A stretch of DNA of 57,456 nucleotides from Candidatus Dojkabacteria bacterium (GTDB lineage Bacteria > Patescibacteriota > Dojkabacteria > B142 > JAFGMG01), in assembly GCA_016927655.1 (NCBI GenBank), contig JAFGMG010000003.1, positions 1-57,456 on the forward strand. The letters run 5' to 3'. Below are positions 16,179 through 55,000 of the stretch, piece by piece. A program made the position numbers and the translations under genes. Position 1 is the first letter of the stretch, and the number at the start of each line of letters is the position of its first letter. The notes under the pieces were generated by a model. It was not told where the DNA came from, ran no database searches, and was given only the letters and a program-made list of their open reading frames with translations.

Positions 16179-16651
16179 TGGTGGAGATGGGGGTATTGAA
16201 ACCCCGTTCAAGAAATATTGCTAGTTGCCTCTACATGTGTAGACTATTTGTTTCAGACGGGTCAGGATAAAAATAGTCAAAAACCAAAACCCGACTGTTT
16301 AGATTAGTGCTTCGAAATTATCCCGCTAAACAAACGAAATAATCCCTGCGCCCAGGCTAAATTACGCTTGAAAAATTCCACCTGAGAAGAAAGTTTCAAA
16401 CGGGCTTAAGAGGGAGCCAAGGGCTCAACCGGTTAAGCAGCTACAGAAAATGAATTGAACTGTAGACCAGAGAACATTACTCTAGCTCCAGCAACAATTT
16501 CATTAACTGTATTGGTGATTCTGTTTTTGACGGTTATTTGTGGTCAGTGCCAGAAACGGCACTACTTGCATCTTACATTTACGAGCTGAGATACAAGAAA
16601 AGCTCGACACGCAGCAAAAAACATATATTCCCTGTCAAATCGCGCATCCCC
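16179..16651 (-). ncRNA. ssrA: tmRNA (SsrA), one-piece, about 473 nt
   Basis: On the minus strand the 5' end reads GGGGATGCGCGATTTGACAGGG (compare B. subtilis GGGGACGUUACGGAUUCGACAGGG). The 3' end reads GGGGTTTCAATACCCCCATCTCCACCA, giving a T-arm, acceptor strand, discriminator A and CCA. The acceptor helix GGGGATG/CATCTCC contains the G3-U70 alanine identity pair. An internal reading frame ends ...AAT TCA TTT TCT GTA GCT GCT TAA (..NSFSVAA stop; TAA at 16435..16433). Confidence 0.85.
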
Positions 16652-18567: not shown

Positions 18568-19566
18568 ATGCATTATAATGGGCAATTCTTGCGCAATTAT
18601 GGAAAAATTATGAAGGGAAAATGGAAAAAATATTTTGACATCTATGGGTTCGATCTATTCTTTATAGGATGTCTGCTGTTCTCGTTGATTTCTCTTGCCA
18701 GCAGCATTTTCATCCTGGATTTACTCCTAATTGCATCAGGATTATTCGCGCTTCCTGTTTTTATTTATCTGCTATTTAAACCTTTTTCCTATAATCCAAG
18801 AACTACATTTATTAAGATCAGCCACAAGCCTTCTAATTTACGGCTTGTATTTATCACGGACCTGCATTTTCATGAGTTTATGCCAAAGAATTATTACAAA
18901 AAAGCTTTTGAAAAAATAAATACCCTGAAGCCCACGGCAATTCTGTTTGGAGGCGATTTCGTCCACGATAGAAATACGAACTTTAGGCAGCTCGAAGAAC
19001 TGAGAATTTTAAACGCAAAGCACAAAATCGGCATACTTGGAAATCATGACTATGATATTAGAAAAGGAGATTTTCAAAAAGATCTTATTAGAACAGAAAA
19101 CTTCAAATACGGAGATCTGGTTGAAAAAGAACTGGAGAAAAACGGGATAACAATTTTGCGGAACGAAAATTTTGAAATTGGAGGAGTCAATGTATTTGGA
19201 CTTGATTCGCTTTGGGCAAAGAAGAACGACCTTTCAAAATACAAACCCGGAGAATTCAATATAATCCTGGCTCACAATCCAAGACTGGTTGAAGAAATGA
19301 ATGAAGTAAATGCCAAAGGCGTCAATTTTGTCCTTTGCGGCCATAATCATGGCGGCGGGCAGATAAGGCTGAATAAATGGATTTCGGCTCATGTATTGAT
19401 GGGACTTATTCAGCCAATCTGGTTCAAAGCTTTCGGAAGATGGGTGTCTGGGAGCTACAAGAACAAAGCGGGGATAAAGATGTTTCTAAACCGCGGACTT
19501 GGTGTAACTGGTATTTCTGCACGCATCAACTGCCCGCCAGAGATCACAATAATCGACATTAAATAA
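18568..19566 (+). CDS. Membrane-anchored calcineurin-like metallophosphoesterase
   Basis: Two N-terminal TM helices, then FITDLHF, GGDFVHD, GNHDY and CGHNHGG motifs in order. The true start may be the downstream ATG encoding MKGKW. Confidence 0.85.
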   Translation: MHYNGQFLRNYGKIMKGKWKKYFDIYGFDLFFIGCLLFSLISLASSIFILDLLLIASGLFALPVFIYLLFKPFSYNPRTTFIKISHKPSNLRLVFITDLHFHEFMPKNYYKKAFEKINTLKPTAILFGGDFVHDRNTNFRQLEELRILNAKHKIGILGNHDYDIRKGDFQKDLIRTENFKYGDLVEKELEKNGITILRNENFEIGGVNVFGLDSLWAKKNDLSKYKPGEFNIILAHNPRLVEEMNEVNAKGVNFVLCGHNHGGGQIRLNKWISAHVLMGLIQPIWFKAFGRWVSGSYKNKAGIKMFLNRGLGVTGISARINCPPEITIIDIK

Positions 19567-19831: not shown

Positions 19832-22800
19832 ATGCTACCAAAAGGACCATACAATTCCGGAAATACTGAGCCAGAGATTTTGAAATACTGGCTTGATGGG
19901 AAATTTTTTAAACCTGAATATCATCCTGAACGCGGTCTTCTTTCGACGGAAGAAATGAAAACGGATGGCAGAGAGCCGTTTTGCATAGTTAATCCCCCGC
20001 CAAATGCCTATATGAGACCGCATATTGGAAATGTCTCAGGATACGCTTACCAAGATGTCTTCCTCAGGTACAACAGGATGAAAGGCAAAAAAGTCCTTGG
20101 CCAGCCCGGAAAAGATCACGCAGGAATCCAAGGAGAAGTCGTTTTGGAGAAAATTTTCTGGGAAAACAAAAAAAAGACGAAACAGGACATGGGCCGTGAC
20201 AAATTCTACAAGGCTTCATACTCACATTTCCTAAAGCTCATGCCGATGGTAATGGCTGATGAGCAAAGAATCGGATTATCAAGCGATTATGATCGTAATA
20301 TTTTCACACTTGATCCGAAAATCGTAAAAACTGTTTTAGGGACATTTACAAAAATGTTTGAAGACAAGATGGTTTACAAGGGAGTAAGGATTGTAAACTG
20401 GGATCCTATTGCAAAAACCACACTTGCTGACATTGATACGGAACGCGAAGAAAGAGACGGAGAGCTGGTTTATATCAATTATCCTATTGCCGGCGAAAAC
20501 AAAAAGCCAAAAATAAAAACTATTGTTTTTGACATTTACGGAGTTGTTGTAAAGGCAGATGAGCAAAAAACAATTGATCAGGAAATTATCGCGCTCATTA
20601 AAGATTTGAAGCATCAAAATTATAAAATCGGGCTTTTATCAAATACTAAAGAAGAAAATCTTGTTGAGCATGACAGTGATGGCCAATATTTAAAGCTATT
20701 CGATTTCCAGTATTTCGCGGCAGATACAAATAATCCGAAACCAGATCCAAAAGCCTACGAGAAATTTGAAGAAAAGTATAGTTTAAAACCAGAAGAGATT
20801 TTATTTATTGATGATAATATTGAAAATCTTTCGCCTGCAAAAAAACGCGGGTGGATAACTTTTCATTATCAGGATAATACAGAAAATCTGAAAAAATTTA
20901 TCGAGACTGGCCGGGAATACCTAACCGTCGCTACCACCCGCGCAGAAACTATGCTTGGAGATACTGCCGTTGTCATAAATCCAAAGGACGAAAGATACAA
21001 GGATCTAATCGGAAAGAAGTTAATTTTACCGCTCGTTGACCGGGAAATTCCAGTTATCACCTCCCCTCATGTTGATATGGAATTTGGAACAGGTGCTGTC
21101 AAACTTACCCCTGCTCACTCCATGGACGACTACAAAATGATGAATGAATGGAATGTTGAAAATGGTGAAGAAAAAAAAGTCGGATATATAAATGTCATCG
21201 ACAAAGATGCCAAGATGACCGGACCGATTCCTGAAAAATATAAGGGCCTAACTACTGAAGAATGCCGAGAAGAAATTAGCAAAGACCTGGAAAAACAAGG
21301 CTTAATTGTCAAACGCGAGCCGCACAAAATGAACGTCATGATCGGAGAGAGATCAAAAGCCGTAGTTGAGCAGATTATGTCTTCTCAGTGGTTCATTGAT
21401 GTAGAAAAACTAAAGCAGCCTGCAATTGATGCTGTCAAAAATGGCGAAGTGCAGATTCATCCTGATTATATGAAGAAAAAATATCTTCATTGGATGGAAA
21501 ATCTCCATGACTGGCCGGTTTCCAGATCGCTTTGGTGGGGATATAGAATACCGGTTTGGTACAAAGGTGAAGTTAAAGAAGAAGTAAACCAGGAAACGGG
21601 GCAGATTATTGAAACCATCAACGGCGTTCAAGTAGATGGTATTTACGACGCGGTTGCAAAAGGTCTAGCTAAAGTGCAAATCGACGAGCCAGGATCGGAA
21701 AATCGAAAGAATTTATTCTTGATCCCAGGTAAACACGGGTATGCAAATAGGAAGCTCTTTCCAGAAATCAAAAATGAATATCCTCATGCAGCAATTTTGG
21801 ACGTAAAAGGATTAGATGACCCAGAATACAAAAATTATGTCGACGAGTTTAAGAAATATGACTTTGATGAAGCCTCCATCATTGTCGCCCACTCTTTAGG
21901 AACAAGGGCTATTCTAAGGTATTTGCTAGACAATAAAATCAAAGTAAACAGTTTAATAATGCTTGCTCCAGGATGTAGGAAGCCAAGATCAAATGGACGA
22001 GATCAAAAATATCTAGATTTAATCACAAATGCTCACGACTATGACCAATTGAAAGATCTAATTAAAAACATTGACATCGTGTATTCAGATAACGACGAAT
22101 TGATGACCCTGAAAAATTTTGAAGATTTTGTAAAGCTTATCCCTGGAGCAAAGGCCCATTTAGAGAAAAATAAAATGCATTATGCTAGCTCTGACTATGG
22201 GAATAGATCAGAAATAGTTAAAGGACTGCTTAAAGAAAAACTTGATGCGAATATTGAAAACAATTTGACCAAATTCACAGTCGTCCGCCACGCACAGACC
22301 GATCACAACAAAATAAAAGCTTTCTGCGGCTCGCTTGATCCCAAACTCAATAGAACCGGGCAGGTTCAAGCCGAGATGTTTGCCAGGACACTCAAAGAAT
22401 CAAACGAAAAATACGACATGATCATCAGCTCCGATCTGAAACGCGCAAAAGAAACTGCAGAAATTATCGCAAAGGAGCTCAAATTAGAAGTTATCAGTAC
22501 AGAATTGATCAGAGAAAGAGATTTCGGAATTCTTGAAGGGAAAACATGGCAGCAGGTCGAAACAGAATATCCAAAACTCGCAAAGAAAATCGAAGAACAA
22601 TATCAGGAAGAAATTCCTGAAGGAGAAAGTATAAACAAAGTCGAAGACAGGGTGCGAGCATTCCTTGATATGATTCGCAATGATTATTCCGGTAAAAAAA
22701 TTCTTCTTGTCACACACTTTGGAATAATCAGAATCCTAAAAAGAGAATTATTAGGCGAAACTCCAGAAGAATCAAGGAAAGGCCAGATAGACAATCTTCA

Positions 22801-23659
22801 GAGATTTGAGATGAGAATCAAACCAGAATCTGACTGGATTCAGGATCTAGATGTTTTTGATACATGGTTCTCCTCTGGTCAGTGGGCTTACGCGCCCTTG
22901 ATCGCAAATGACTTGATCGATACTTTCTACCCAACAGACATTATGGAGACTATGCATGACATTTTAGAATTGTGGGTAAGCCGGATGATGATGCTAAGTC
23001 TTTATACTCAAAAGAAAATTCCATTTAAACATGTTTATCTGCATGGAATGGTTAAAGCCGCCGATGGACAGAAAATGAGTAAATCTAAAGGGAATGTAGT
23101 TCTTCCCGAAGAAATAATCGAGAAATATGGCGCAGATTCCCTGAGACTAATGTATCTGGTTGGGAATAAAGCCGGAGCAAGCTACCCTGTCAGCTATGAA
23201 AAACTCGAAGGCTATAAAAGATTTCTGAATAAAATCTGGAACGCAAGCAAATTTGTGCTCTCGAACACGGAGAATATCAAACCTTCAGACAAAAGCTCAA
23301 ATAAAGAAGATAAAAAACTACTAAGAGAGCTCATGACACTCAAGCAGACCATTATCAGACATATCGACAATTACCGTATTGGAATGGCAGCAGAGGAGCT
23401 CTACAGCCATTTCTGGCACTATTTCTGTGATGTGTTCCTCGAAGAGGTTAAACCGAGATTGTATACAAAAGACAGGGAAGGTAATCCAATAAATCAAGGA
23501 CCAAAGGAACAGAAATCAAGAAAAGAAGCTCAATCTGTTCTACTTTATGCCCTTAGAGAATACATGAAAATGCTAAATCCTTTCATACCATTTATTACAG
23601 AGAGGATTTGGCAGGAAATTGAGCCTGAAAAAACGATTATGTATGAATCGTGGGTTTAA
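19832..23659 (+). CDS. valS: Valyl-tRNA synthetase with three inserted enzyme-like domains (HAD-like, alpha/beta hydrolase-like, histidine phosphatase-like) and no C-terminal coiled coil
   Basis: ValRS motifs in order: PPPNAYMRPHIGN, GKDHAGIQ, TTRAETMLGDTAVVINP, GTGAVKLTPAH, WPVSRSLWWGYRIPVWY, DVFDTWFSS, KMSKS and an anticodon-binding domain. The extra segments lie at aa 229-360 and aa 624-997. See findings. Confidence 0.9.
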   Translation: MLPKGPYNSGNTEPEILKYWLDGKFFKPEYHPERGLLSTEEMKTDGREPFCIVNPPPNAYMRPHIGNVSGYAYQDVFLRYNRMKGKKVLGQPGKDHAGIQGEVVLEKIFWENKKKTKQDMGRDKFYKASYSHFLKLMPMVMADEQRIGLSSDYDRNIFTLDPKIVKTVLGTFTKMFEDKMVYKGVRIVNWDPIAKTTLADIDTEREERDGELVYINYPIAGENKKPKIKTIVFDIYGVVVKADEQKTIDQEIIALIKDLKHQNYKIGLLSNTKEENLVEHDSDGQYLKLFDFQYFAADTNNPKPDPKAYEKFEEKYSLKPEEILFIDDNIENLSPAKKRGWITFHYQDNTENLKKFIETGREYLTVATTRAETMLGDTAVVINPKDERYKDLIGKKLILPLVDREIPVITSPHVDMEFGTGAVKLTPAHSMDDYKMMNEWNVENGEEKKVGYINVIDKDAKMTGPIPEKYKGLTTEECREEISKDLEKQGLIVKREPHKMNVMIGERSKAVVEQIMSSQWFIDVEKLKQPAIDAVKNGEVQIHPDYMKKKYLHWMENLHDWPVSRSLWWGYRIPVWYKGEVKEEVNQETGQIIETINGVQVDGIYDAVAKGLAKVQIDEPGSENRKNLFLIPGKHGYANRKLFPEIKNEYPHAAILDVKGLDDPEYKNYVDEFKKYDFDEASIIVAHSLGTRAILRYLLDNKIKVNSLIMLAPGCRKPRSNGRDQKYLDLITNAHDYDQLKDLIKNIDIVYSDNDELMTLKNFEDFVKLIPGAKAHLEKNKMHYASSDYGNRSEIVKGLLKEKLDANIENNLTKFTVVRHAQTDHNKIKAFCGSLDPKLNRTGQVQAEMFARTLKESNEKYDMIISSDLKRAKETAEIIAKELKLEVISTELIRERDFGILEGKTWQQVETEYPKLAKKIEEQYQEEIPEGESINKVEDRVRAFLDMIRNDYSGKKILLVTHFGIIRILKRELLGETPEESRKGQIDNLQRFEMRIKPESDWIQDLDVFDTWFSSGQWAYAPLIANDLIDTFYPTDIMETMHDILELWVSRMMMLSLYTQKKIPFKHVYLHGMVKAADGQKMSKSKGNVVLPEEIIEKYGADSLRLMYLVGNKAGASYPVSYEKLEGYKRFLNKIWNASKFVLSNTENIKPSDKSSNKEDKKLLRELMTLKQTIIRHIDNYRIGMAAEELYSHFWHYFCDVFLEEVKPRLYTKDREGNPINQGPKEQKSRKEAQSVLLYALREYMKMLNPFIPFITERIWQEIEPEKTIMYESWV

Positions 23660-24342
23660 ATAATTTTAGCCTCTTCTTGTATGCGTGCCACTACTTCGTC
23701 AGCCTCAGATTGATTGAAAAGTTCTAGATATTTATTTGGGCATCCCACATCGGACAACATAGCAATATTCCCAAAAAGATGATATGCCTTAGCTGCTTTG
23801 GGCCAGATTAATGCATCTTCCGGAAGTTCCTGACTACACAGTATTAAATTTAAATCCCCTTCGGGCAGATCTCTTAACATCCCCCAGTATCCCCCAATGG
23901 TTGTAACATTTCTCAATTCTTCCTCCAGATTCACTCGATTTTGCCCTCCTTGATTGATCTGCGTTTCGAGAAATGCCTTGATAGGAATACTTGTATTTTG
24001 AGCAGCAATCACCCTATGAGGAGCACTTGTGTATTGATTTAAGAGCCTGGTGCGAGTCACGGAAGGCAGGCTGGTTTGACTCACCAGTCTGCCGTTCAAA
24101 TCCAAAATCTCTTCAATGGGCACGCCCATTGCTATACAATTTCCTAACTCTCCTGTGTCAATCTGAATCAATCTATTTACTAGATCATGCGTATTCTTGA
24201 TGGCCTGCGGTAAAACCAAACCATTACCAAGCAATTCTAATACCAATCCAGCTTTTCGCGACGATACTCCATGAAGAGTACTCCCGACAGAAATCAATTC
24301 TGCTGGCCGGAATTGCGGTGATTGCCTAAGCTCTGGAAGCAT
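23656..24342 (-). CDS. Hypothetical protein, translationally coupled to tatD
   Basis: 228-aa ORF whose ATG overlaps the tatD stop (TAATG at 24340-24344). No recognisable motif. By eye the composition is less AT-rich than the neighbours. Confidence 0.55.
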   Translation of the reverse strand: MLPELRQSPQFRPAELISVGSTLHGVSSRKAGLVLELLGNGLVLPQAIKNTHDLVNRLIQIDTGELGNCIAMGVPIEEILDLNGRLVSQTSLPSVTRTRLLNQYTSAPHRVIAAQNTSIPIKAFLETQINQGGQNRVNLEEELRNVTTIGGYWGMLRDLPEGDLNLILCSQELPEDALIWPKAAKAYHLFGNIAMLSDVGCPNKYLELFNQSEADEVVARIQEEAKII

Positions 24343-25253: not shown

Positions 25254-27413
25254 TTAGTCAAAGAGTTGCGGGGCCACGTCTATCAATGTTTCTCCAAGAT
25301 TATCCTCTCCAACGGATAATTTATAAATTCCGTTATGATCTGTTCCTATGCCGATTTCATCTTCTGCCAGAATCATACCAGCGGATTCAATTCCCCTTAT
25401 ATTTTTCTTTTCCAGGCGAACTTTCTTTCTTTCATTTAGTAATAATCCAGGAATTAGCTCCCCTTCGCCAAGAAATGGCACGATGTCGCCAACCTCGATA
25501 TTCTCGGCGCCAGTTACGATTGTTTGCTCTTTTTTTCCGTCAGTAACAGCCACAAGAAGCAATCGATCAGCATCAGGATGCTTTTCAATTTTTGTGATTT
25601 TGACAATTTTAATTGGCTTTAGAAGTGCTTCTCTATCGATCTCTTCTCCCTCTTCTTCTAGAATTGGAATATCACTTTCCTCAAATTTTCTAAATAACGG
25701 TCTCACCTCGCCAAGTCTTGGATAGCCGGTAATTGACTCAAATCTAAAAAGATCTTTTCCAACTGCTGGTTCTTCAACATCAACACCCAGCATTTCGGAT
25801 AGTCTTTTAAATGCCTCTGGGAAGAACGGCCTAATGAGAATTCTTAGAGCTTCGACGATATTGAGTAAATTGTACATTTCATTCTCAGCTTTAACCTTAT
25901 CTTCTTTAATCAACTCCCAAATCTTAGAATCGTTGAAATAACTATTCCCCTGGCTGGACAAATTATTCATTAACGTTTCTAGAGCTAATGAAAATTTACA
26001 TTCATCTAAATACTTACCGATTAAATCTATCTTGTTTTTAAATTCAATTTCCAATTCACCTTTCAATTCGCGATTCTCAAAGTTTTTCTTATAAAAAACT
26101 AACGTCCTGTTTATAAAATTTCCCAGATTCGCTACCAGTTCGTTATTATTTGCATCCACGAATCTCTGCCAGGTGAAATTTGATTCTTTATTCTCGGGCA
26201 GATTACTTAAAATATAGTACCTGACAGCATCAGTGCCAAATTTGTCAGCAATTTCTTTAGAATCAACAATATTTCCCCTGCTCTTAGAAAACTTTGCATT
26301 GTTAAAGTTCATAAATTTATTTACAGCCACATTTCGCGGCAGTGTATAGCCTTTCTCAGCCCCTATTAATTGCCCCGGCCACATCAAAGCGTGGAAAACA
26401 AGATTGTCCTGCCCCATGAAATAATAGTGTTCAGACTCCTCATCGAGCCACCATTCTTTCCAGTCCTTTGACTGCCCGGCATATTCGCGGAAAATATAAT
26501 CACCGTTCACATCCTTTTTCATCTCATTCAAAGAACCTTTCGCGTATTCACTCCACTCTTGCGGAGCAGATAAATAACCAGTAACCGCCTCAAACCAGAC
26601 GTAAATTTTCTTTTTGTCAATATTTTCGATTAATTTATCCTGTGGAATTCTATCTTTTGGCAATTCAATCCCCCAATCGATATCACGAGTGATCGCTCTT
26701 TTCTGCATTCCTTCATTGAGCCAGCCAGCAGCTTCTTTGTAAACCCAGTTTCTCCAAACCTCAGACTTCTTCACTCCATCTAGCTTTCCCTCCAGATAAT
26801 CCTCCAATTTCCCTTGAAGTGCTCCAAAATCCAGGAAATAGTGCTCAGTATCTTTCAGTTCGACTTTTTCGCCGGTTTTTCTGCTCACCGGATCAATCAG
26901 CTCCCCATCGTTTAGCCATCTTCCGCAATTCTCACACTGATCAGCCCTTTGCTCTGTTGCTTTGCAATGCGGACAGGTCCCTTCTACGTACCTATCCGGC
27001 AGAAATTCATCATCTTCGGCACTATAATATTGCTTTGTCACATCTTTAATGATGAAGTCATTATTTAGCAGATCAATAAACAAATCTTGAACAACTTTTT
27101 TGTGATTTTCCGTTGTCGTTTTTGTATATAAACTGTAATCCAGATCGTACTGTTCAAAAAGTTCAATGTCTTTTTTGTGATATTTCTCAATAACTTCCTG
27201 CGGAGTTATCCCTTCTTTGTCAGCCTGCACAGTAATAGGTGTGCCGTGACAATCAGAACCCGAGACCATCAGGACATCATTTCCCCGCAGTCTCTGATAT
27301 CTGGAGAATACATCCGCTGGCAACAAGTATCCTGCCAAATGCCCAACGTGAATATTTCCATTTACATAAGGCCATGCGACTGCGATAAGAATTTTCTTTG
27401 ACAAGAGAATCAA
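25254..27413 (-). CDS. metG: Methionyl-tRNA synthetase with a C-terminal tRNA-binding (Trbp111/EMAP-like) domain
   Basis: AWPYVNGNIHVGHLAGY (HIGH); zinc knuckle CPHCKATEQRADQCENCG; KFSKSRGN (KMSKS). The C-terminus has KIEKHPDADRLLLVAV...IRGIESAGMIL. The start appears to be TTG at 27413, as there is no in-frame ATG before HIGH. Confidence 0.93.
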   Translation of the reverse strand: MILLSKKILIAVAWPYVNGNIHVGHLAGYLLPADVFSRYQRLRGNDVLMVSGSDCHGTPITVQADKEGITPQEVIEKYHKKDIELFEQYDLDYSLYTKTTTENHKKVVQDLFIDLLNNDFIIKDVTKQYYSAEDDEFLPDRYVEGTCPHCKATEQRADQCENCGRWLNDGELIDPVSRKTGEKVELKDTEHYFLDFGALQGKLEDYLEGKLDGVKKSEVWRNWVYKEAAGWLNEGMQKRAITRDIDWGIELPKDRIPQDKLIENIDKKKIYVWFEAVTGYLSAPQEWSEYAKGSLNEMKKDVNGDYIFREYAGQSKDWKEWWLDEESEHYYFMGQDNLVFHALMWPGQLIGAEKGYTLPRNVAVNKFMNFNNAKFSKSRGNIVDSKEIADKFGTDAVRYYILSNLPENKESNFTWQRFVDANNNELVANLGNFINRTLVFYKKNFENRELKGELEIEFKNKIDLIGKYLDECKFSLALETLMNNLSSQGNSYFNDSKIWELIKEDKVKAENEMYNLLNIVEALRILIRPFFPEAFKRLSEMLGVDVEEPAVGKDLFRFESITGYPRLGEVRPLFRKFEESDIPILEEEGEEIDREALLKPIKIVKITKIEKHPDADRLLLVAVTDGKKEQTIVTGAENIEVGDIVPFLGEGELIPGLLLNERKKVRLEKKNIRGIESAGMILAEDEIGIGTDHNGIYKLSVGEDNLGETLIDVAPQLFD

Positions 27414-51643: not shown

Positions 51644-52033
51644 ATGATAATTCTTTCGATTGATTATGGAACGAGACATGTAGGACTTGCAATCAGCGAT
51701 GAGCGTGAGATCGTTGCAATGCGCCTTCCGAGCCTTACTATCAAAAGACCAAATGATCTAATAGAAGGCTTGAAAGCTTTAAGAAAAAATATAGTCTTTG
51801 AAAAAATACTTCTTGGCCTACCGGATAAAGGTGAAAATAGAGGGAAAATCCAAGAAATTGCAAAAACTATCCAAAAAGAATTAGATATTCCAGTTGAATT
51901 CTGGAATGAGGACTTCTCTTCTAAATCTGCTGAAAAAGGCACAAGCAAAAAATTCAAGAAAGAAAAAGCACACTCCGAGGCTGCTAGAATATTTCTTCAG
52001 GAATATCTGGAAGACCGCTCAAGTGAGTCTTAA
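51644..52033 (+). CDS. ruvX: YqgF/RuvX-like putative pre-16S rRNA nuclease (Holliday junction resolvase-like)
   Basis: MIILSIDYGTRHVGLAISD at the internal ATG 51644. The tracked start at 51551 would overlap yidD and add a hydrophobic non-homologous extension. C-terminal DE.FSS..A motif. Confidence 0.85.
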   Translation: MIILSIDYGTRHVGLAISDEREIVAMRLPSLTIKRPNDLIEGLKALRKNIVFEKILLGLPDKGENRGKIQEIAKTIQKELDIPVEFWNEDFSSKSAEKGTSKKFKKEKAHSEAARIFLQEYLEDRSSES

Positions 52034-55000
52034 TTGACATATTTTCTCAAATCCTTCGTTCTGATTCTATTGAAAATAAATATTGTAACCAGGAAGTACA
52101 ATATGAGACCAAGTGTGGTGGCTTGAAGTGCCTTATTGATTCCTCCGCTGCCTGCATCCGCAACCATAATAGAAATTGAGTCAGGATCAATTATATTACC
52201 TCCTTCGGTTGTACTAAATTTATGCCAGGCATCATAGACATAGTTATTCCCATTACTCATCACTTCATAATAGTATTCCTGCCCAGGTTCAAGATCAGTA
52301 ATAATTACCTGATGAACTTTTGTTTTCCTGTCATATTCAACCGACTCGCCATAATCAAGTGAATCACCGTAATTAACTTTGCTTGTTGCCAAGTGATTAG
52401 TTTTCCATTCAATCACAGCATAATTATCACCCTTCTCGACAACTTGAACATCAGAGATCGCTGTAGCTTCTTTATCAAACCATAAATCCCAAATTGCCAC
52501 GACCTTACTATACGAATCTGCAAAAAGCGGTCTAACCACATTTTCATTTATACCCCGATTTATATCGGCTGCCACTTCTGGCACATGTGTTAAAACAAAA
52601 TTGCCGAGTGTATTTGCTATGACCTCTGCATTATTTGCCAGTTCATTTGCGGCATACCTAATGAGGTCCAATAAACCACTTCTCAGTCCCCTACTAAAAC
52701 CAAACAAATTATTCTGCAAATCAACCAGATAGTTTACGGAGCCTCCAATAACACCACCTAAATTTTCGCTTATTATCTTTAATCCTTCGCTTACAACTCC
52801 GCGTACACCCTGTACAACGTTTTGCAAAATTCCACCTTCATTGCTGCTATCTAGATTGTTTATTAAATCAGACGCATTATCATTATTAATTATAATTTCC
52901 TCTAATTCATCCACATTAAGATCCGTAATATCACCCACAATCTCCAAAGTTTTAGTTGTTTCAGTTATGTTCCCTAATTTGTCATATGCTTTTAAAATAA
53001 TCTGGTATTCACCTGCCTCAAAACTTTCGGAAGGACTGAATGAGAAATCGGCATATTTATCACTGACATTGAGCGTATTATCCGTTATTATATTCTCATT
53101 GTAACTCCAATAAATGTCTGGGAAATTATTTACGGCAGTAAGTATTGTAGTTGTGCTGCCGCCTTGTAATTTGTTTATTGTCATAACAACTTTCAGCGGA
53201 CCGACAGCAGCTTTTTCCCCAGATCCGGATAGTTGATCGACAACCCTACCACTTATTGAGATACTAGTATCCAAAGTCTTTGAACTTGAATCAGTGGAAC
53301 CGTTTATTTTGACATCTTGGAGAGATGGAGCATGAAAATCCGCAAAGAACTCAACTTCTGTTGAGCTGAAATTCCCCACACCATCATAGGCAATAACCTC
53401 AAGACTGTTGATTCCTTCTGATAAATTCCCATTGTTGCGACCTGCACCCCAATTCGAAGAAGATTTCGTACTTAAGCTAATAATATCATTTAGAGGATCA
53501 GGGTCATTAAAATTTGAATAATATATATTGTACTTGTCAGTATTTACCGTAGAAGCAGCATAGCTATTGACTGGATAGACTTCTATTGCCGAATTTAAGG
53601 TAAATCTATATCTTATTACGTCATCTGAGTACCTTGAAAACCAAGAGAAACTAGGACGTGGATTATTCATATATGTTTTTGAAGCCGGATTAATTATTGC
53701 AGGGAGTTCCGGATCACTAAGATCTATCCTGACTTCACCAAGTTCAGAAAAACCTGACTGCACTCCAAGCTCGCTTACCACCGAAAGCCTTGCATACCAG
53801 GTCCCTTCGACCAGATCAATAAGATGAGTATAAGTCAGCTCTGATACTAGGATAGTATTACTTTCACATCCTGAGAAATTCGAATTATCACACCATTCAA
53901 ACTTATACTGATAAGTTATGCCTGATTCACCAGAAAATTCATTCCAAATCCAAATTGGCTTTGTGTCACTTGTAGGTGTTTCAGTAACCGGGACATCTGG
54001 GACTCCTTCAATTTCAGCATCAAGAACAAGCGAACCTGTGTTTGAATATTCTGAATAATTTCCCGCTATATCCCTTGCTCTCACTCTTGCATACCATGTT
54101 CCATCTGCCAGATTACTAGTATGAGTATATGTTGGAGTGTCAGAATTTGCGGCCGAAACACCCGAACTGAATGTCTGACTCTGCGACCACTCCAATCTGT
54201 AATAATCAATGTCAACGGCCGTTGCCGCTTCCCACTCCCAAGTTGGTGTTTTATCCATGGTAGGACTGTCTGCTATTGGGGTGCCAGGAATATCAGGGTC
54301 TGAAATATCAATCGTTATGTCTGATGAAACCGAATAATCAGATTCCAATAAAGCTCTGTCAACACCTTTCACCCTTATATAGTAAGTACCTTCAGAACTT
54401 TCCGGCAAGGTGAAGTTATTTACACTTCTGTTTGAAATATTTGCATCACATCCGGTATAAGCTTCATTGTCACACCATTGAACTATATACGCATTAATCC
54501 CGGACCCTCCACTATCACTAGCTCCACTCCAATCCCATCTTGGAGTAGTATCATGAGTAGGGGTTGTTCTGGTAAAACTCGTTGGGGGCGTTGGCGGAAC
54601 GGTATCGATTATGGCTCTTGCATAATCACTGTAATACGATTCATTTCCGACACTATCAATTGCTTTTACTTTCACATACCACGAACCATCAGCAAGAGGT
54701 GACCCCGGAGTATACGAATTTGTAACTACATTAGTTTTGTTTGCATCACAATCCAGAAAATCTGACGCATCACACCACCAAATTTCATAATTTGAAATAT
54801 ATGCAGCATCTCCATCATCATAAACCGCATCCCACTCCCAAGTTGGTGTTGTGTCCTGTGTATAAGCATCAACCGTGACATTTGTTGGTGTGTCAGGGAG
54901 ATCAGTATCAATAATAACCGTCCCATAATCTGAATAGGCTGATTCATTACCAACTTTGTCAACTGCCTTTACTTTATAATACCAGGTTCCATCTGCTAGA

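What the first reader, a model, noticed from the sequence alone, without database searches (positions are those of the whole stretch)
19832..23659. Valyl-tRNA synthetase interrupted by three unrelated, apparently intact enzyme domains
This is one uninterrupted 1275-codon frame. ValRS-diagnostic motifs occur in canonical order:
- PPPNAYMRPHIGN (aa 55-67), then GKDHAGIQ.
- TTRAET (368-373) and GTGAVKLTPAH (419-429) of the CP1 editing domain.
- WPVSRSLWWGYRIPVWY (561-577).
- DVFDTWFSS (1007-1015).
- KMSKS (1081-1085).
- Anticodon-binding helices running to the C-terminus.

This order is broken by a ~132-aa HAD-like module. It is broken again by a ~375-aa block, an alpha/beta serine-hydrolase-like module followed by a histidine-phosphatase-like module. 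All three keep their superfamily catalytic signatures, so they do not look like decayed filler.

Removing them leaves a ValRS core of about 760 aa. I am not aware of a described ValRS with this architecture. Possible meanings (inference) are coupling of aminoacylation or editing to hydrolysis of a phospho- or acyl-compound, or gene-fusion economy in a reduced genome.
Basis: partly seen in the sequence, partly recalled or inferred. Interest (0 to 1): 0.85.

Follow-up and report, generated by a model that had tools for sequence, protein, structure and literature searches.

The report
ValRS carrying three nested hydrolase domains
An essential valyl-tRNA synthetase of an uncultivated Dojkabacteria (CPR) bacterium has three folded hydrolase domains nested in two surface hairpins, and one of them, a histidine phosphatase, recurs next to or inside ValRS, IleRS and the CCA-adding enzyme, which suggests an undescribed activity at the tRNA 3' end.

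Summary
Window 19832-23659 (+) is one 1275-codon frame that scores as valS above NCBI's equivalog cut-offs. Three extra Pfam domains interrupt it, all above cut-off: HAD (aa 222-362), YdeN/RBBP9-type Ser hydrolase (621-811) and His_Phos_1 (812-1000). An AlphaFold model (pLDDT 89) folds all three confidently. The organism is a Candidatus Dojkabacteria (CPR) bacterium. It is not an assembly artefact, because an orthologue with the same layout is recovered identically from four independent assemblies in conserved synteny.

The inserts sit in two beta-hairpin turns that are insertion hot spots in this clade, and close relatives carry different module combinations. Catalytic residues of the Ser hydrolase and His phosphatase are conserved although the modules diverge fast. 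The window's HAD has lost its cap.

The phosphatase subfamily also occurs free just downstream of valS, nested in IleRS, and nested beside the HD domain of Dojkabacteria CCA-adding enzymes. All of these are tRNA 3'-end enzymes. I therefore infer, without a test, a tRNA 3'-end function for the phosphatase and an aminoacyl-ester hydrolase role for the RBBP9-like domain. No paper in the searched library describes this. Verdict: new variant of a known kind, high interest.

The parts
19832..20494 (+). ValRS core segment 1 (aa 1-221). It covers the first half of the Rossmann fold with an HIGN variant of the HIGH motif (H64-N67), and the beta-strand entering CP1.
   Evidence: Pfam tRNA-synt_1. It aligns to T. 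thermophilus ValRS residues 31-206. P55-N58, H64 and G66 are invariant in 68 relatives.
20495..20917 (+). Nested module 1 at site A (aa 222-362): a cap-less HAD-IA domain of YihX / sEH-N-terminal phosphatase type. Its motifs are nucleophile D234 (with Y236 at Asp+2), motif II S270, motif III K303 and motif IV D327-D328. It ends 6 residues before the threonine-rich editing motif TTRAET.
   Evidence: HAD_2 E 6e-16 when scanned alone. The best PDB sequence hits are the sEH phosphatase domain and YihX. The comparison with 5 relatives shows the cap deletion and which motifs are conserved. The closest free HADs have DxGGV in motif I. Model pLDDT here is 76-92.
20918..21691 (+). ValRS core segment 2 (aa 363-620): the CP1 editing domain (TTRAET 368-373, GTGAVKLTPAH 419-429, D433), the WWGYRIP motif (568-574) and the native CP-loop hairpin up to ...KVQIDEPG.
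   Evidence: It aligns to T. thermophilus ValRS residues 206-419 and to the isolated editing domain 1WKA.
21692..22264 (+). Nested module 2 at site B (aa 621-811): an alpha/beta serine hydrolase of the YdeN/RBBP9 family (PF06821) with triad S688-D755-H783.
   Evidence: Pfam Ser_hydrolase E 1e-9 when scanned alone. A profile of the modules hits YdeN 1UXO (E 4e-9) and RBBP9 2QS9 (E 4e-5). The triad is conserved in at least 95% of 31 embedded copies. Model pLDDT is mostly 80-96.
22265..22831 (+). Nested module 3 at site B (aa 812-1000): a branch-1 histidine phosphatase with R819, H820, R871, E895 and H962.
   Evidence: His_Phos_1 E 4e-48. The catalytic residues are conserved in 30-32 of 32 embedded copies. 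The best PDB sequence hit is phosphoserine phosphatase 4IJ5. The subfamily also occurs free next to valS and nested in IleRS and in the CCA-adding enzyme.
22832..23659 (+). ValRS core segment 3 (aa 1001-1275 plus the stop codon): DVFDTWFSS (1007-1015), KMSKS (1081-1085) and the anticodon-binding helical domain. It ends at T. thermophilus residue ~705, so there is no C-terminal coiled-coil.
   Evidence: It aligns to 1GAX residues 448-705. Pfam Anticodon_1 covers 1160-1274.

Best explanation
This is the working valS gene of a Candidatus Dojkabacteria (CPR/Patescibacteria) bacterium. Its ValRS core is intact: the synthetic site, the CP1 editing site and the anticodon-binding domain.

Three independently folding hydrolase domains are nested in two surface beta-hairpin turns:
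- A cap-less HAD sits in the hairpin just before the threonine-rich editing motif.
- A YdeN/RBBP9-type serine hydrolase followed by a histidine phosphatase sits in the loop between WWGYRIP and DVFDTWFSS.

This much is shown.
- Both turns are clade-wide insertion hot spots where different modules are gained, lost and stacked.
- The phosphatase and serine-hydrolase modules keep their catalytic residues while the rest of their sequence drifts.
- The phosphatase belongs to a subfamily that is free immediately downstream of valS in some relatives, and nested in ValRS, in IleRS, or next to the HD domain of the CCA-adding enzyme in others.

This much is inferred.
- What all these hosts share is the tRNA 3' end. 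The phosphatase most likely acts there, for example by removing a 2'/3'-terminal phosphate so that a damaged tRNA can be repaired or charged.
- The RBBP9-like hydrolase most likely cleaves alpha-aminoacyl esters. That would make it an extra deacylase for (mis)acylated tRNA-Val or aminoacyl-adenylate.
- The HAD's activity is uncertain.

On this reading the polypeptide is a ValRS with an on-board tRNA-end conditioning and quality-control kit.
For: ValRS identity and integrity:
- Equivalog cut-offs are passed.
- The motifs are in place.
- About 100 core positions are invariant across 68 relatives, including the editing residues K424, T426 and D433.
- The best structural match is 1GAX.

Nested, folded modules:
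- Pfam hits.
- Model pLDDT 89.3, pTM 0.73, no segment below 50.

Exact hairpin-turn junctions: insert-less P0021 reads ...VQVESPG-EGWIQD... and YPLVGEDGSITVATTRPET. These map to 1GAX G206 and residues 419-448.

Hot spots and mosaicism:
- Site A is occupied in 61 of 120 relatives and site B in 52 of 120, by HAD, ASCH-like, X2, Ham1p, GNAT, Ser hydrolase and His phosphatase modules.
- Presence and absence are patchy among relatives that share about 80% core identity.

Selection on catalysis:
- Modules are only about 35-45% identical where cores are 50-82% identical.
- Even so, S688/D755/H783 and R819/H820/R871/E895/H962 are at least 94% conserved.

Real gene: P0003 is recovered identically in 4 independent assemblies in the same synteny.

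Phosphatase association with tRNA 3'-end enzymes:
- Of the 150 closest representatives among 1.84 billion proteins, every heterologous host except one NUDIX fusion is a ValRS (3), an IleRS-type enzyme (9) or a CCA-adding enzyme (1).
- The CCA-enzyme architecture recurs in at least 14 clusters whose insert-less relatives are annotated Dojkabacteria. The insert lies directly after the HD domain.
- A free 186-187-aa copy lies 43-255 nt downstream of valS on the same strand in L012, L014 and L015. The L012 copy is 45-50% identical to embedded copies.

Precedents:
- The HD domain of E. coli CCA enzyme has 2',3'-cyclic phosphodiesterase, 2'-nucleotidase and phosphatase activities. The citation (Yakunin 2004, J Biol Chem 279:36819) is listed in PMC2190708, where its title is cut short. 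The activities are stated from my own knowledge of that paper.
- RBBP9 activates valacyclovir (Shenoy 2020, cited in PMC7730578). Valacyclovir is an L-valyl ester of a nucleoside analogue (my own knowledge).
Against: - No biochemical evidence exists, and the substrates are inferred only from association and family precedent.
- The histidine phosphatase superfamily has no characterised RNA-3'-end phosphatase that I know of.
- The module scores below the cut-offs of every specific NCBIfam equivalog, including CobC, PspA and GpmB.
- Modules are dispensable. Close relatives have insert-less ValRS, and two of the four relatives examined that lack a site-B insert have no free phosphatase gene beside valS (L013 and L016).
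- Some module types at the same hot spots, such as Ham1p/ITPase, do not fit a tRNA-end theme.
- The Ser hydrolase was found only in ValRS hosts, so it has no independent association evidence.
- The window's HAD lacks both cap and Asp+2 and may be inactive.
- I had no model coordinates, so I could not check whether the module active sites face the tRNA path.
Confidence: 0.5

Rival explanations
1. Hitchhiker enzymes, or fusion economy. The three modules are ordinary small-molecule hydrolases (two phosphatases and an esterase/aminopeptidase) with no role in tRNA biology. They became nested in permissive surface loops of an essential, constitutively expressed protein. This saves promoters and ribosome-binding sites in a genome of about 1 Mb. 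ValRS only provides expression and a scaffold.
For: - Presence and absence are patchy among close relatives, and insert-less ValRS are fully viable.
- Chemically unrelated modules (GNAT, ITPase, ASCH-like, HAD) occupy the same two turns.
- Modules evolve much faster than the core.
- aaRS are known preferred hosts for domain insertion in general (PMC13114784).
- The nearest characterised relatives of the modules are metabolite enzymes: phosphoserine phosphatase, CobC, YihX and the sEH phosphatase domain.
Against: - It does not explain why one phosphatase subfamily is captured by three different tRNA 3'-end enzymes (ValRS, IleRS and the CCA-adding enzyme) and by almost no other host among its 150 closest relatives.
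- It does not explain why the free form sits in an apparent operon with valS.
- The MetRS in the same window, also a class I enzyme, has no such insert.
Confidence: 0.3
2. Product removal. The phosphatase modules hydrolyse a small product common to aminoacylation and CCA addition. That product could be pyrophosphate, or AMP or another nucleotide. Hydrolysis at the site of production would pull these ATP-dependent reactions forward.
For: - ValRS, IleRS and the CCA-adding enzyme all consume ATP and release PPi, so this explains the same host range.
- One relative is fused to a NUDIX domain, a nucleotide-diphosphate hydrolase.
- Some HAD members are pyrophosphatases (my own knowledge).
Against: - Branch-1 histidine phosphatases characteristically act on phosphomonoesters.
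- PPi is made by many other enzymes that are not hosts.
- I did not test whether these genomes lack a conventional pyrophosphatase.
Confidence: 0.12
3. Inactive or structural filler. The modules are former enzymes now kept only as spacers. Alternatively they serve as extra tRNA-binding surfaces that compensate for the missing C-terminal coiled-coil of this ValRS clade.
For: - The HAD has lost its cap and lacks Asp+2.
- The ValRS core ends at T. thermophilus residue ~705 and lacks the coiled-coil that binds the tRNA elbow.
- Relatives carry an ASCH-like module, a putative RNA-binding fold, at site A.
- A few embedded phosphatase copies have lost a catalytic residue.
Against: - Near-complete conservation of five phosphatase and three hydrolase catalytic residues, against about 35-45% overall module identity, indicates selection for catalysis.
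- In the HAD, the nucleophile Asp, motif II Ser, motif III Lys and motif IV DD are conserved in 6 of 6 copies.
- The lack of Asp+2 is a trait of the parent subfamily (DxGGV) and does not indicate decay.
Confidence: 0.06
4. Assembly or sequencing artefact. On this reading a chimeric contig or a missed frameshift joins separate genes.
For: Nothing positive. Reads for this contig could not be examined.
Against: - The ValRS core continues in frame on both sides of each insert.
- An orthologue with the same three inserts is identical in 4 independent assemblies from ENA and JGI, in the same HisKA-PRTase-valS...TatD synteny.
- Dozens of relatives share subsets of the inserts at exactly the same junctions.
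- GC3 of the inserts lies within the window's normal range.
Confidence: 0.02

Closest known systems
Canonical bacterial valyl-tRNA synthetase (T. thermophilus ValRS, PDB 1GAX/1IVS; NCBIfam NF004349, TIGR00422)
   Same: Class Ia Rossmann core with a HIGH-type motif and KMSKS, a CP1 editing domain with the threonine-rich motif and conserved Asp, and an Anticodon_1 helical domain. It scores above the equivalog cut-offs.
   Different: It has 510 extra residues as three nested enzyme domains at 1GAX positions G206 and 419-448. It has no C-terminal coiled-coil, since it ends at residue ~705 of 862. Its HIGH motif reads HIGN.
IleRS with an N-acetyltransferase domain (NCBIfam NF040702 'ileS_w_GNAT'), and the IleRS proteins with nested His_Phos_1 found here (P0207, P0211, P0213; P0205 from Candidatus Peribacteria)
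   Same: A class Ia editing synthetase that carries an additional catalytic domain. The IleRS found here carry the same phosphatase subfamily, and one of their insertion sites is the homologous loop.
   Different: The host enzyme differs. The IleRS carry 2-4 phosphatase copies and no HAD or Ser hydrolase. The window protein scores far below the NF040702 cut-off (169 against 1999). I found no publication on either architecture in the library searched.
Multifunctional CCA-adding/repair enzyme (E. coli Cca with its HD domain), and the Dojkabacteria CCA enzymes with nested His_Phos_1 (P0236, P0360-P0370)
   Same: A tRNA 3'-end enzyme that combines its main activity with phosphoesterase chemistry in one polypeptide. 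The Dojkabacteria CCA enzymes carry a module 42-47% identical to ValRS-embedded copies.
   Different: In E. coli the HD domain itself supplies the phosphatase activities. Here a histidine phosphatase is added, and in the window it sits in a synthetase, not in the CCA enzyme.
YdeN (B. subtilis, 1UXO) and RBBP9 (human, 2QS9), Pfam PF06821
   Same: A small alpha/beta hydrolase with a Ser-Asp-His triad. The module profile hits both. RBBP9 cleaves off single amino acids with a free alpha-amine and activates a valyl-ester prodrug.
   Different: Both are free-standing proteins of about 190 aa. Sequence identity is low. No family member is known to act on aminoacyl-tRNA.
Free-standing trans-editing deacylases (AlaX, YbaK/ProX, D-Tyr-tRNA deacylase) and appended aaRS domains of eukaryotes
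   Same: The concept of adding extra hydrolytic or accessory domains to the aminoacylation machinery (my own knowledge).
   Different: Those belong to different folds. They are either separate proteins or terminal appendages. None is an alpha/beta hydrolase, HAD or histidine phosphatase nested inside the catalytic core.
Rv2228c-type bifunctional RNase H / acid phosphatase (NCBIfam NF005567)
   Same: A CobC-like branch-1 histidine phosphatase fused to a nucleic-acid enzyme. The window module matches its phosphatase half (126.6 bits).
   Different: That fusion is terminal, not nested, and its partner is RNase H. The window score is below the 326-bit cut-off.

Membership tests
Valine--tRNA ligase (NCBIfam NF004349 / TIGR00422) | Whole-protein score above the curated equivalog cut-off | tested here: met
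   740.1 bits against 704, and 698.8 against 612.1, despite the inserts.
Valine--tRNA ligase (NCBIfam NF004349 / TIGR00422) | Class I signature motifs (HIGH-type and KMSKS) in canonical order | tested here: met
   HIGN at 64-67 (H64 and G66 invariant) and KMSKS at 1081-1085.
Valine--tRNA ligase (NCBIfam NF004349 / TIGR00422) | CP1 editing domain with the threonine-rich motif and the conserved Asp/Lys of the editing pocket | tested here: met
   TTRAET 368-373 and GTGAVKLTPAH 419-429. K424, T426, H429 and D433 are invariant in 68 relatives. It aligns to the isolated editing domain 1WKA.
Valine--tRNA ligase (NCBIfam NF004349 / TIGR00422) | C-terminal coiled-coil tRNA-binding domain of typical bacterial ValRS | tested here: not met
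   The alignment to 1GAX ends at residue 705 of 862, and there is no PF10458 hit. The whole Dojkabacteria clade shares this. It is not required by the equivalog models.
Valine--tRNA ligase (NCBIfam NF004349 / TIGR00422) | Valine-specific aminoacylation of tRNA-Val, as the only valS of the genome | not testable with these tools
   Only 57 kb of the genome is available. There is no second valS-like gene in the window.
Histidine phosphatase superfamily branch 1 (PF00300) | Pfam gathering score, and the catalytic core RHG-His, second His, two Arg and Glu | tested here: met
   163.5 bits against 21.7. R819, H820, R871, E895 and H962 are present and conserved in 30-32 of 32 embedded copies.
Specific histidine phosphatases (CobC TIGR03162, PspA NF045917, GpmB NF002901) | Score above the equivalog cut-off | tested here: not met
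   128.2 against 162.9, 108.5 against 350, and 78.7 against 261. The module should not be named after any of these.
Ser_hydrolase / YdeN-RBBP9 family (PF06821) | Pfam gathering score, the Ser-Asp-His triad and the nucleophile elbow | tested here: met
   34.5 bits (39 when scanned alone) against 22. The elbow is AHSLG with S688, plus D755 and H783, conserved in at least 95% of 31 copies. The profile hits 1UXO and 2QS9.
Ser_hydrolase / YdeN-RBBP9 family (PF06821) | Alpha-aminoacyl (ester or amide) hydrolase activity as shown for RBBP9 | not testable with these tools
   The precedent is literature only. The counterpart of the RBBP9 alpha-amine anchor Glu108 could not be assigned reliably from the alignment.
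HAD superfamily phosphatase (PF13419 / PF00702) | Pfam gathering score and motifs I (nucleophile Asp), II (Ser/Thr), III (Lys) and IV (DD) | tested here: met
   56.9 bits against 23.8. D234, S270, K303 and D327-D328 are present, and conserved in 6 of 6 embedded copies.
HAD superfamily phosphatase (PF13419 / PF00702) | Asp+2 general acid/base of motif I (DxD) | tested here: not met
   The window has Y236, and relatives have N, S or H. The closest free relatives have DxGGV, with Gly in 45 of 62, so this is a subfamily trait.
HAD superfamily phosphatase (PF13419 / PF00702) | C1 cap domain between motifs I and II (subfamily IA) | tested here: not met
   A helical cap of about 68 aa is present in P0002-P0006 and cleanly absent from the window copy.
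Intein or other self-splicing / mobile insertion | Hint/intein splicing domain or a homing endonuclease within the insert | tested here: not met
   Pfam shows no such hit in the protein. All inserted sequence is accounted for by the three hydrolase domains.
tRNA 3'-end healing systems (HD domain of the CCA enzyme, Pnkp-type phosphatases) | Physical or genomic association with enzymes that bind the tRNA 3' end | tested here: met
   The phosphatase subfamily is nested in ValRS, IleRS and the CCA-adding enzyme, and is free just downstream of valS.
tRNA 3'-end healing systems (HD domain of the CCA enzyme, Pnkp-type phosphatases) | Phosphomonoesterase or cyclic phosphodiesterase activity on RNA 3' termini | not testable with these tools
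   This needs enzyme assays. The claim here is 'may work like', not membership.

The most novel reading that the evidence does not exclude
The nested domains form a cis-acting tRNA 3'-end repair and proofreading kit, with two parts.

1. A previously unrecognised subfamily of histidine phosphatases acts as a tRNA 3'-terminal phosphatase. CPR bacteria deliver it to the tRNA by embedding it in ValRS, IleRS or the CCA-adding enzyme, or by co-transcribing it with valS.
2. An RBBP9-type serine hydrolase acts as a second editing (aminoacyl-ester hydrolase) domain, of a fold never seen before in aaRS proofreading.

The two hairpin turns would then be a natural 'plug-in socket' system for tRNA-directed enzymes.
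Probability: 0.3. Interest if true: 0.85.

Novelty: new variant of a known kind. Interest (0 to 1): 0.72.

Why it matters
Aminoacyl-tRNA synthetases are among the most conserved enzymes known. Bacterial ones are regarded as architecturally stable, and extra domains are mostly a eukaryotic, terminal phenomenon.

- **An evolutionary case.** Here an essential bacterial ValRS tolerates three catalytic domains, 510 residues, inside its catalytic and editing body. A whole phylum swaps at least seven module types in and out of the same two hairpin turns. That makes it a natural experiment in domain insertion.
- **A ready-made engineering scaffold.** The two turns are mapped sites where foreign domains can be plugged into a class Ia synthetase.
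- **A testable functional prediction.** One phosphatase subfamily is repeatedly captured by ValRS, IleRS and the CCA-adding enzyme. This 'Rosetta-stone' signal predicts a new tRNA-end activity in organisms whose biology is largely unknown and which cannot yet be cultured alone. If the RBBP9-like domain is a deacylase, it would be a new kind of aaRS editing domain, and it would hint at the native chemistry of the poorly understood YdeN/RBBP9 family.

Tried and rejected
- **Chimeric assembly or frameshift: rejected.** The orthologue P0003 is identical in four assemblies with matching synteny, and junctions are shared across dozens of relatives.
- **Intein or mobile element: rejected.** There are no splicing or endonuclease domains.
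- **Recent foreign origin judged from composition: rejected.** HAD GC3 is 0.277 and Ser-hydrolase GC3 is 0.327, against 0.41 for the core. However, 11% and 41% of 140-codon windows in the contig are as low or lower, and P0003 shows the same pattern.
- **A second canonical valS in the same genome: not resolved.** P0045 (with insert) and P0069 (without) come from contigs of nearly equal length, 1,140,724 and 1,140,820 bp, but these proved to be different samples and loci. The question stays open for the window's own genome.
- **Genome-contig scan with the full protein:** only one true relative was found (L005), so it was not informative about taxonomy or copy number.
- **Host census for the Ser hydrolase:**
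  - The first alignment (A3) was too divergent for pattern design.
  - The narrower one (A4) found only three loci, all ValRS.
  - There is therefore no independent association evidence for this module.
- **Context of the closest free HAD (L017):** it lies next to an intein-containing ATPase and has no tRNA link.
- **Neighbourhood of the CCA-HisPhos gene (L018):** no valS lies within 10 kb.
- **Free phosphatase gene beside valS:** not universal. It is absent in L013 and L016.
- **Fold search of the 1200-aa model:** it returned only synthetase hosts.
- **Literature:** eight searches found no description of this architecture. The library is limited to open-access papers and bioRxiv.

Full report
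**1. The observation**

Window 19832-23659 (+) is a single ATG-initiated frame of 1275 codons with no internal stop.

Pfam splits tRNA-synt_1 into pieces and finds Anticodon_1 at the C-terminus. It also finds three extra domains above their gathering scores:
- HAD_2 at 227-340 (E 4e-15)
- Ser_hydrolase PF06821 at 629-770 (E 2e-8)
- His_Phos_1 at 817-1000 (E 6e-48)

Scanned in isolation, the three inserts give the same families. Despite 510 inserted residues, the protein passes NCBI's two valS equivalog cut-offs (740.1 against 704, and 698.8 against 612.1).

**2. Organism and genuineness**

The closest named relatives are 'Candidatus Dojkabacteria' / 'candidate division WS6', a CPR/Patescibacteria lineage. 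The window is ordinary chromosomal DNA with a tmRNA, three tRNAs and MetRS.

An orthologue with all three inserts (P0003) occurs, identical in sequence, in four independent ENA and JGI assemblies. Its order HisKA-kinase, PRTase, valS ... TatD matches the window. Other relatives share subsets of the inserts at identical junctions. Codon-position GC of the inserts lies within the contig's normal range. An assembly artefact is therefore very unlikely. Reads could not be examined.

**3. Anatomy**

The insertion points, aligned to T. thermophilus ValRS (1GAX), are as follows.
- **Site A** falls exactly at G206, the turn of the beta-hairpin that precedes the threonine-rich editing motif.
  - Insert-less relatives read YPLVGEDGSITVATTRPET.
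  - The window has 141 residues in that turn, ending 6 residues before TTRAET.
- **Site B** lies between 1GAX residues 419 and 448.
  - Insert-less P0021 reads ...VQVESPG-EGWIQDPDVFDTWF.
  - The window has about 380 residues between PG and WIQD.

An AlphaFold2 model of aa 1-1200, built with 68 relatives, has mean pLDDT 89.3 and pTM 0.73, with no segment below 50. All three inserts fold as compact alpha/beta domains. The best structural match of the whole model is 1GAX.

The core is under strong constraint. About 100 positions are invariant in 68 relatives, including the editing-pocket residues K424, T426, H429 and D433 and the KMSKS loop. The protein ends at 1GAX residue ~705, so the clade lacks the C-terminal coiled-coil.

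**4. The modules**

- **His phosphatase (aa 812-1000).**
  - R819, H820, R871, E895 and H962 are present and conserved in 30-32 of 32 embedded copies.
  - It scores below the cut-offs of CobC, PspA and GpmB, so it should not be given a specific name.
- **Ser hydrolase (aa 621-811).**
  - The triad S688/D755/H783 is conserved in at least 95% of 31 copies.
  - A profile of the modules hits B. subtilis YdeN (E 4e-9) and human RBBP9 (E 4e-5).
- **HAD (aa 222-362).**
  - The nucleophile D234, S270, K303 and D327-D328 are conserved in all six embedded copies.
  - The Asp+2 position is Y, N, S or H.
  - The window copy has a clean deletion of the helical cap of about 68 aa that the other five keep.
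  - The closest free HADs, 'epoxide-hydrolase-like predicted phosphatases' of about 200 aa with PDB neighbours sEH-N and YihX, have DxGGV. The missing Asp+2 is therefore a subfamily trait, not decay. The cap loss is specific to this lineage, and it leaves the HAD's activity in doubt.

**5. A phylum-wide mosaic**

Among the 120 best relatives, site A carries at least 40 extra residues in 61 proteins and site B carries at least 60 extra residues in 52.

| Site | Modules found |
|---|---|
| A | HAD (6 proteins), an ASCH-like domain of about 130 aa (weak Pfam hit, E 9e-4), an unknown module of about 120 aa, Ham1p/ITPase |
| B | GNAT, one or two Ser hydrolases, His phosphatase |

Modules are also stacked in tandem. 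On a tree of the 707 core columns, the window's own subclade has about 75-82% core identity, yet it contains every combination from no insert to all three.

Modules are only about 35-45% identical where cores are 50-82% identical. They evolve fast except at their catalytic residues, which is the signature of active, accessory enzymes.

**6. The key comparative result**

I searched the phosphatase module against 1.84 billion representative proteins. Its 150 closest relatives fall into four groups:
- Free proteins of about 186 aa.
- Free tandem doubles.
- One NUDIX fusion.
- Nested copies in only three kinds of host: ValRS (3), IleRS-type synthetases (9, with two to four copies) and a CCA-adding enzyme (1).

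Further detail on the hosts:
- Two of the IleRS hosts pass the ileS equivalog cut-off (857 and 830 bits against 621). One is annotated Candidatus Peribacteria.
- The CCA-enzyme architecture is not a singleton.
  - At least 14 clusters from NCBI, JGI, ENA and Logan share it.
  - Their insert-less nearest relatives are annotated Dojkabacteria.
  - The insert sits directly after the HD domain.
- In relatives whose ValRS lacks a site-B insert, a free 186-187-aa His_Phos_1 gene lies 43-255 nt downstream of valS on the same strand, in the same syntenic block (L012, L014 and L015).
  - The L012 copy is 45-50% identical to embedded copies, as close as those are to each other.
  - The adjacency is absent in two other relatives (L013 and L016).
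- Contigs of identical length suggest that genomes with a ValRS-embedded phosphatase have an insert-less CCA enzyme (P0094/P0440 and P0039/P0447). This is an inference from contig length only.

**7. Mechanism**

- **Shown:** a functional-looking ValRS that carries two catalytically intact accessory hydrolases and one doubtful one, at two hot-spot turns.
- **Inferred for the phosphatase.**
  - The one thing ValRS, IleRS and the CCA-adding enzyme share is the tRNA acceptor end, together with ATP and PPi.
  - The E. coli CCA enzyme's HD domain has 2',3'-cyclic phosphodiesterase, 2'-nucleotidase and phosphatase activities. The citation (Yakunin 2004) is listed in PMC2190708, and the activities are stated from my own knowledge of that paper.
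  - A histidine phosphatase placed next to that HD domain, or on a synthetase, most economically acts on a terminal 2'/3'-phosphate of tRNA, that is, end healing.
- **Inferred for the Ser hydrolase.**
  - It also activates valacyclovir (reference in PMC7730578). Valacyclovir is an L-valyl ester of a nucleoside analogue (my own knowledge).
  - An aminoacyl-ester hydrolase nested in ValRS would be an extra deacylase. This step rests on analogy only.
- **Rivals:** autonomous hitchhiker enzymes (fusion economy), local removal of PPi or nucleotide products, and inactive or structural filler. I rate the tRNA-end reading at about 0.5 and the hitchhiker reading at about 0.3.

**8. Comparison with what is known, and novelty**

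The protein is a member of the ValRS family by every sequence criterion tested, except the optional coiled-coil. The modules are members of PF00300, PF06821 and the HAD superfamily, the last with two canonical HAD features not met.

Extra domains on synthetases are a known theme, and NCBI even curates an IleRS-with-GNAT model. Synthetases are also recognised as frequent hosts for domain insertion (PMC13114784).

Eight full-text searches found no description of any of the following:
- a ValRS with nested HAD, Ser-hydrolase or His-phosphatase domains
- the Dojkabacteria insertion hot spots
- histidine phosphatases nested in IleRS or in the CCA-adding enzyme

I therefore class the finding as a new variant of a known kind, with a realistic chance (about 0.3) that it hides a new tRNA-end activity.

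**9. Verdict**

The finding is more general than one gene, since it belongs to a clade-wide mosaic. Interest 0.72.

Noticed in passing
window 16179-16651 (-): The Rfam tmRNA hit (85 bits) spans 473 nt for a 374-position model, which implies an insertion of about 100 nt. ARAGORN did not call a tmRNA here.
   Followed up: no
window 25254-27413 (-): MetRS is 719 aa with a C-terminal tRNA_bind (PF01588) domain. The syntenic MetRS of relatives (L012-L016) are 580-590 aa and have no PF01588 hit on record. So a second synthetase in this contig differs from its relatives by a whole domain, this time a terminal one.
   Followed up: partly
window 18568-19566 (+): A calcineurin-like metallophosphoesterase gene (Metallophos, E 3e-13) lies directly upstream of valS on the same strand, with a 265-nt gap. 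Relatives have a Bro-N gene or nothing at this position. The same superfamily includes RNA end-healing phosphatases such as CthPnkp.
   Followed up: no
window 22832-23659 (+), and relatives P0021-P0120: ValRS of this clade ends at T. thermophilus residue ~705 of 862, so it has no C-terminal coiled-coil tRNA-binding domain. Its HIGH motif reads HIGN.
   Followed up: partly
relatives P0022, P0052, P0060, P0078, P0091, P0118, P0010: Other modules are nested at the same two ValRS turns in relatives: an ASCH-like domain (GxKxxETR motif, Pfam E 9e-4), an unknown module of about 120 aa ending in GAHIILF...YTNGFI, Ham1p/ITPase, GNAT, and two tandem Ser hydrolases.
   Followed up: partly
P0236, P0360-P0370, P0372, P0375; locus L018 10001-12085: Dojkabacteria CCA-adding enzymes carry a histidine phosphatase nested immediately after the HD domain (about aa 355-562 of P0236). 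At least 14 distinct clusters share this architecture.
   Followed up: partly
P0205, P0207, P0210, P0211, P0213, P0219, P0235, P0241, P0299: IleRS-type synthetases carry two to four nested histidine phosphatase domains. One of them (P0205) is annotated Candidatus Peribacteria. In P0207 the two copies sit at two different sites, one of them after the KMSKS region.
   Followed up: partly
L014 10735-11298 (+), L012 12929-13489 (+), L015 6189-6752 (+): A free 186-187-aa His_Phos_1 gene lies just downstream of valS. The L014 copy reads CHGET instead of RHGET, so it lacks one phosphate-pocket arginine.
   Followed up: partly
window 23656-24342 (-) and 52030-57303 (-): A 228-aa ORF with no Pfam hit overlaps the valS stop codon by 4 nt on the opposite strand. 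A 1757-aa ORF near the end of the window was not examined.
   Followed up: no
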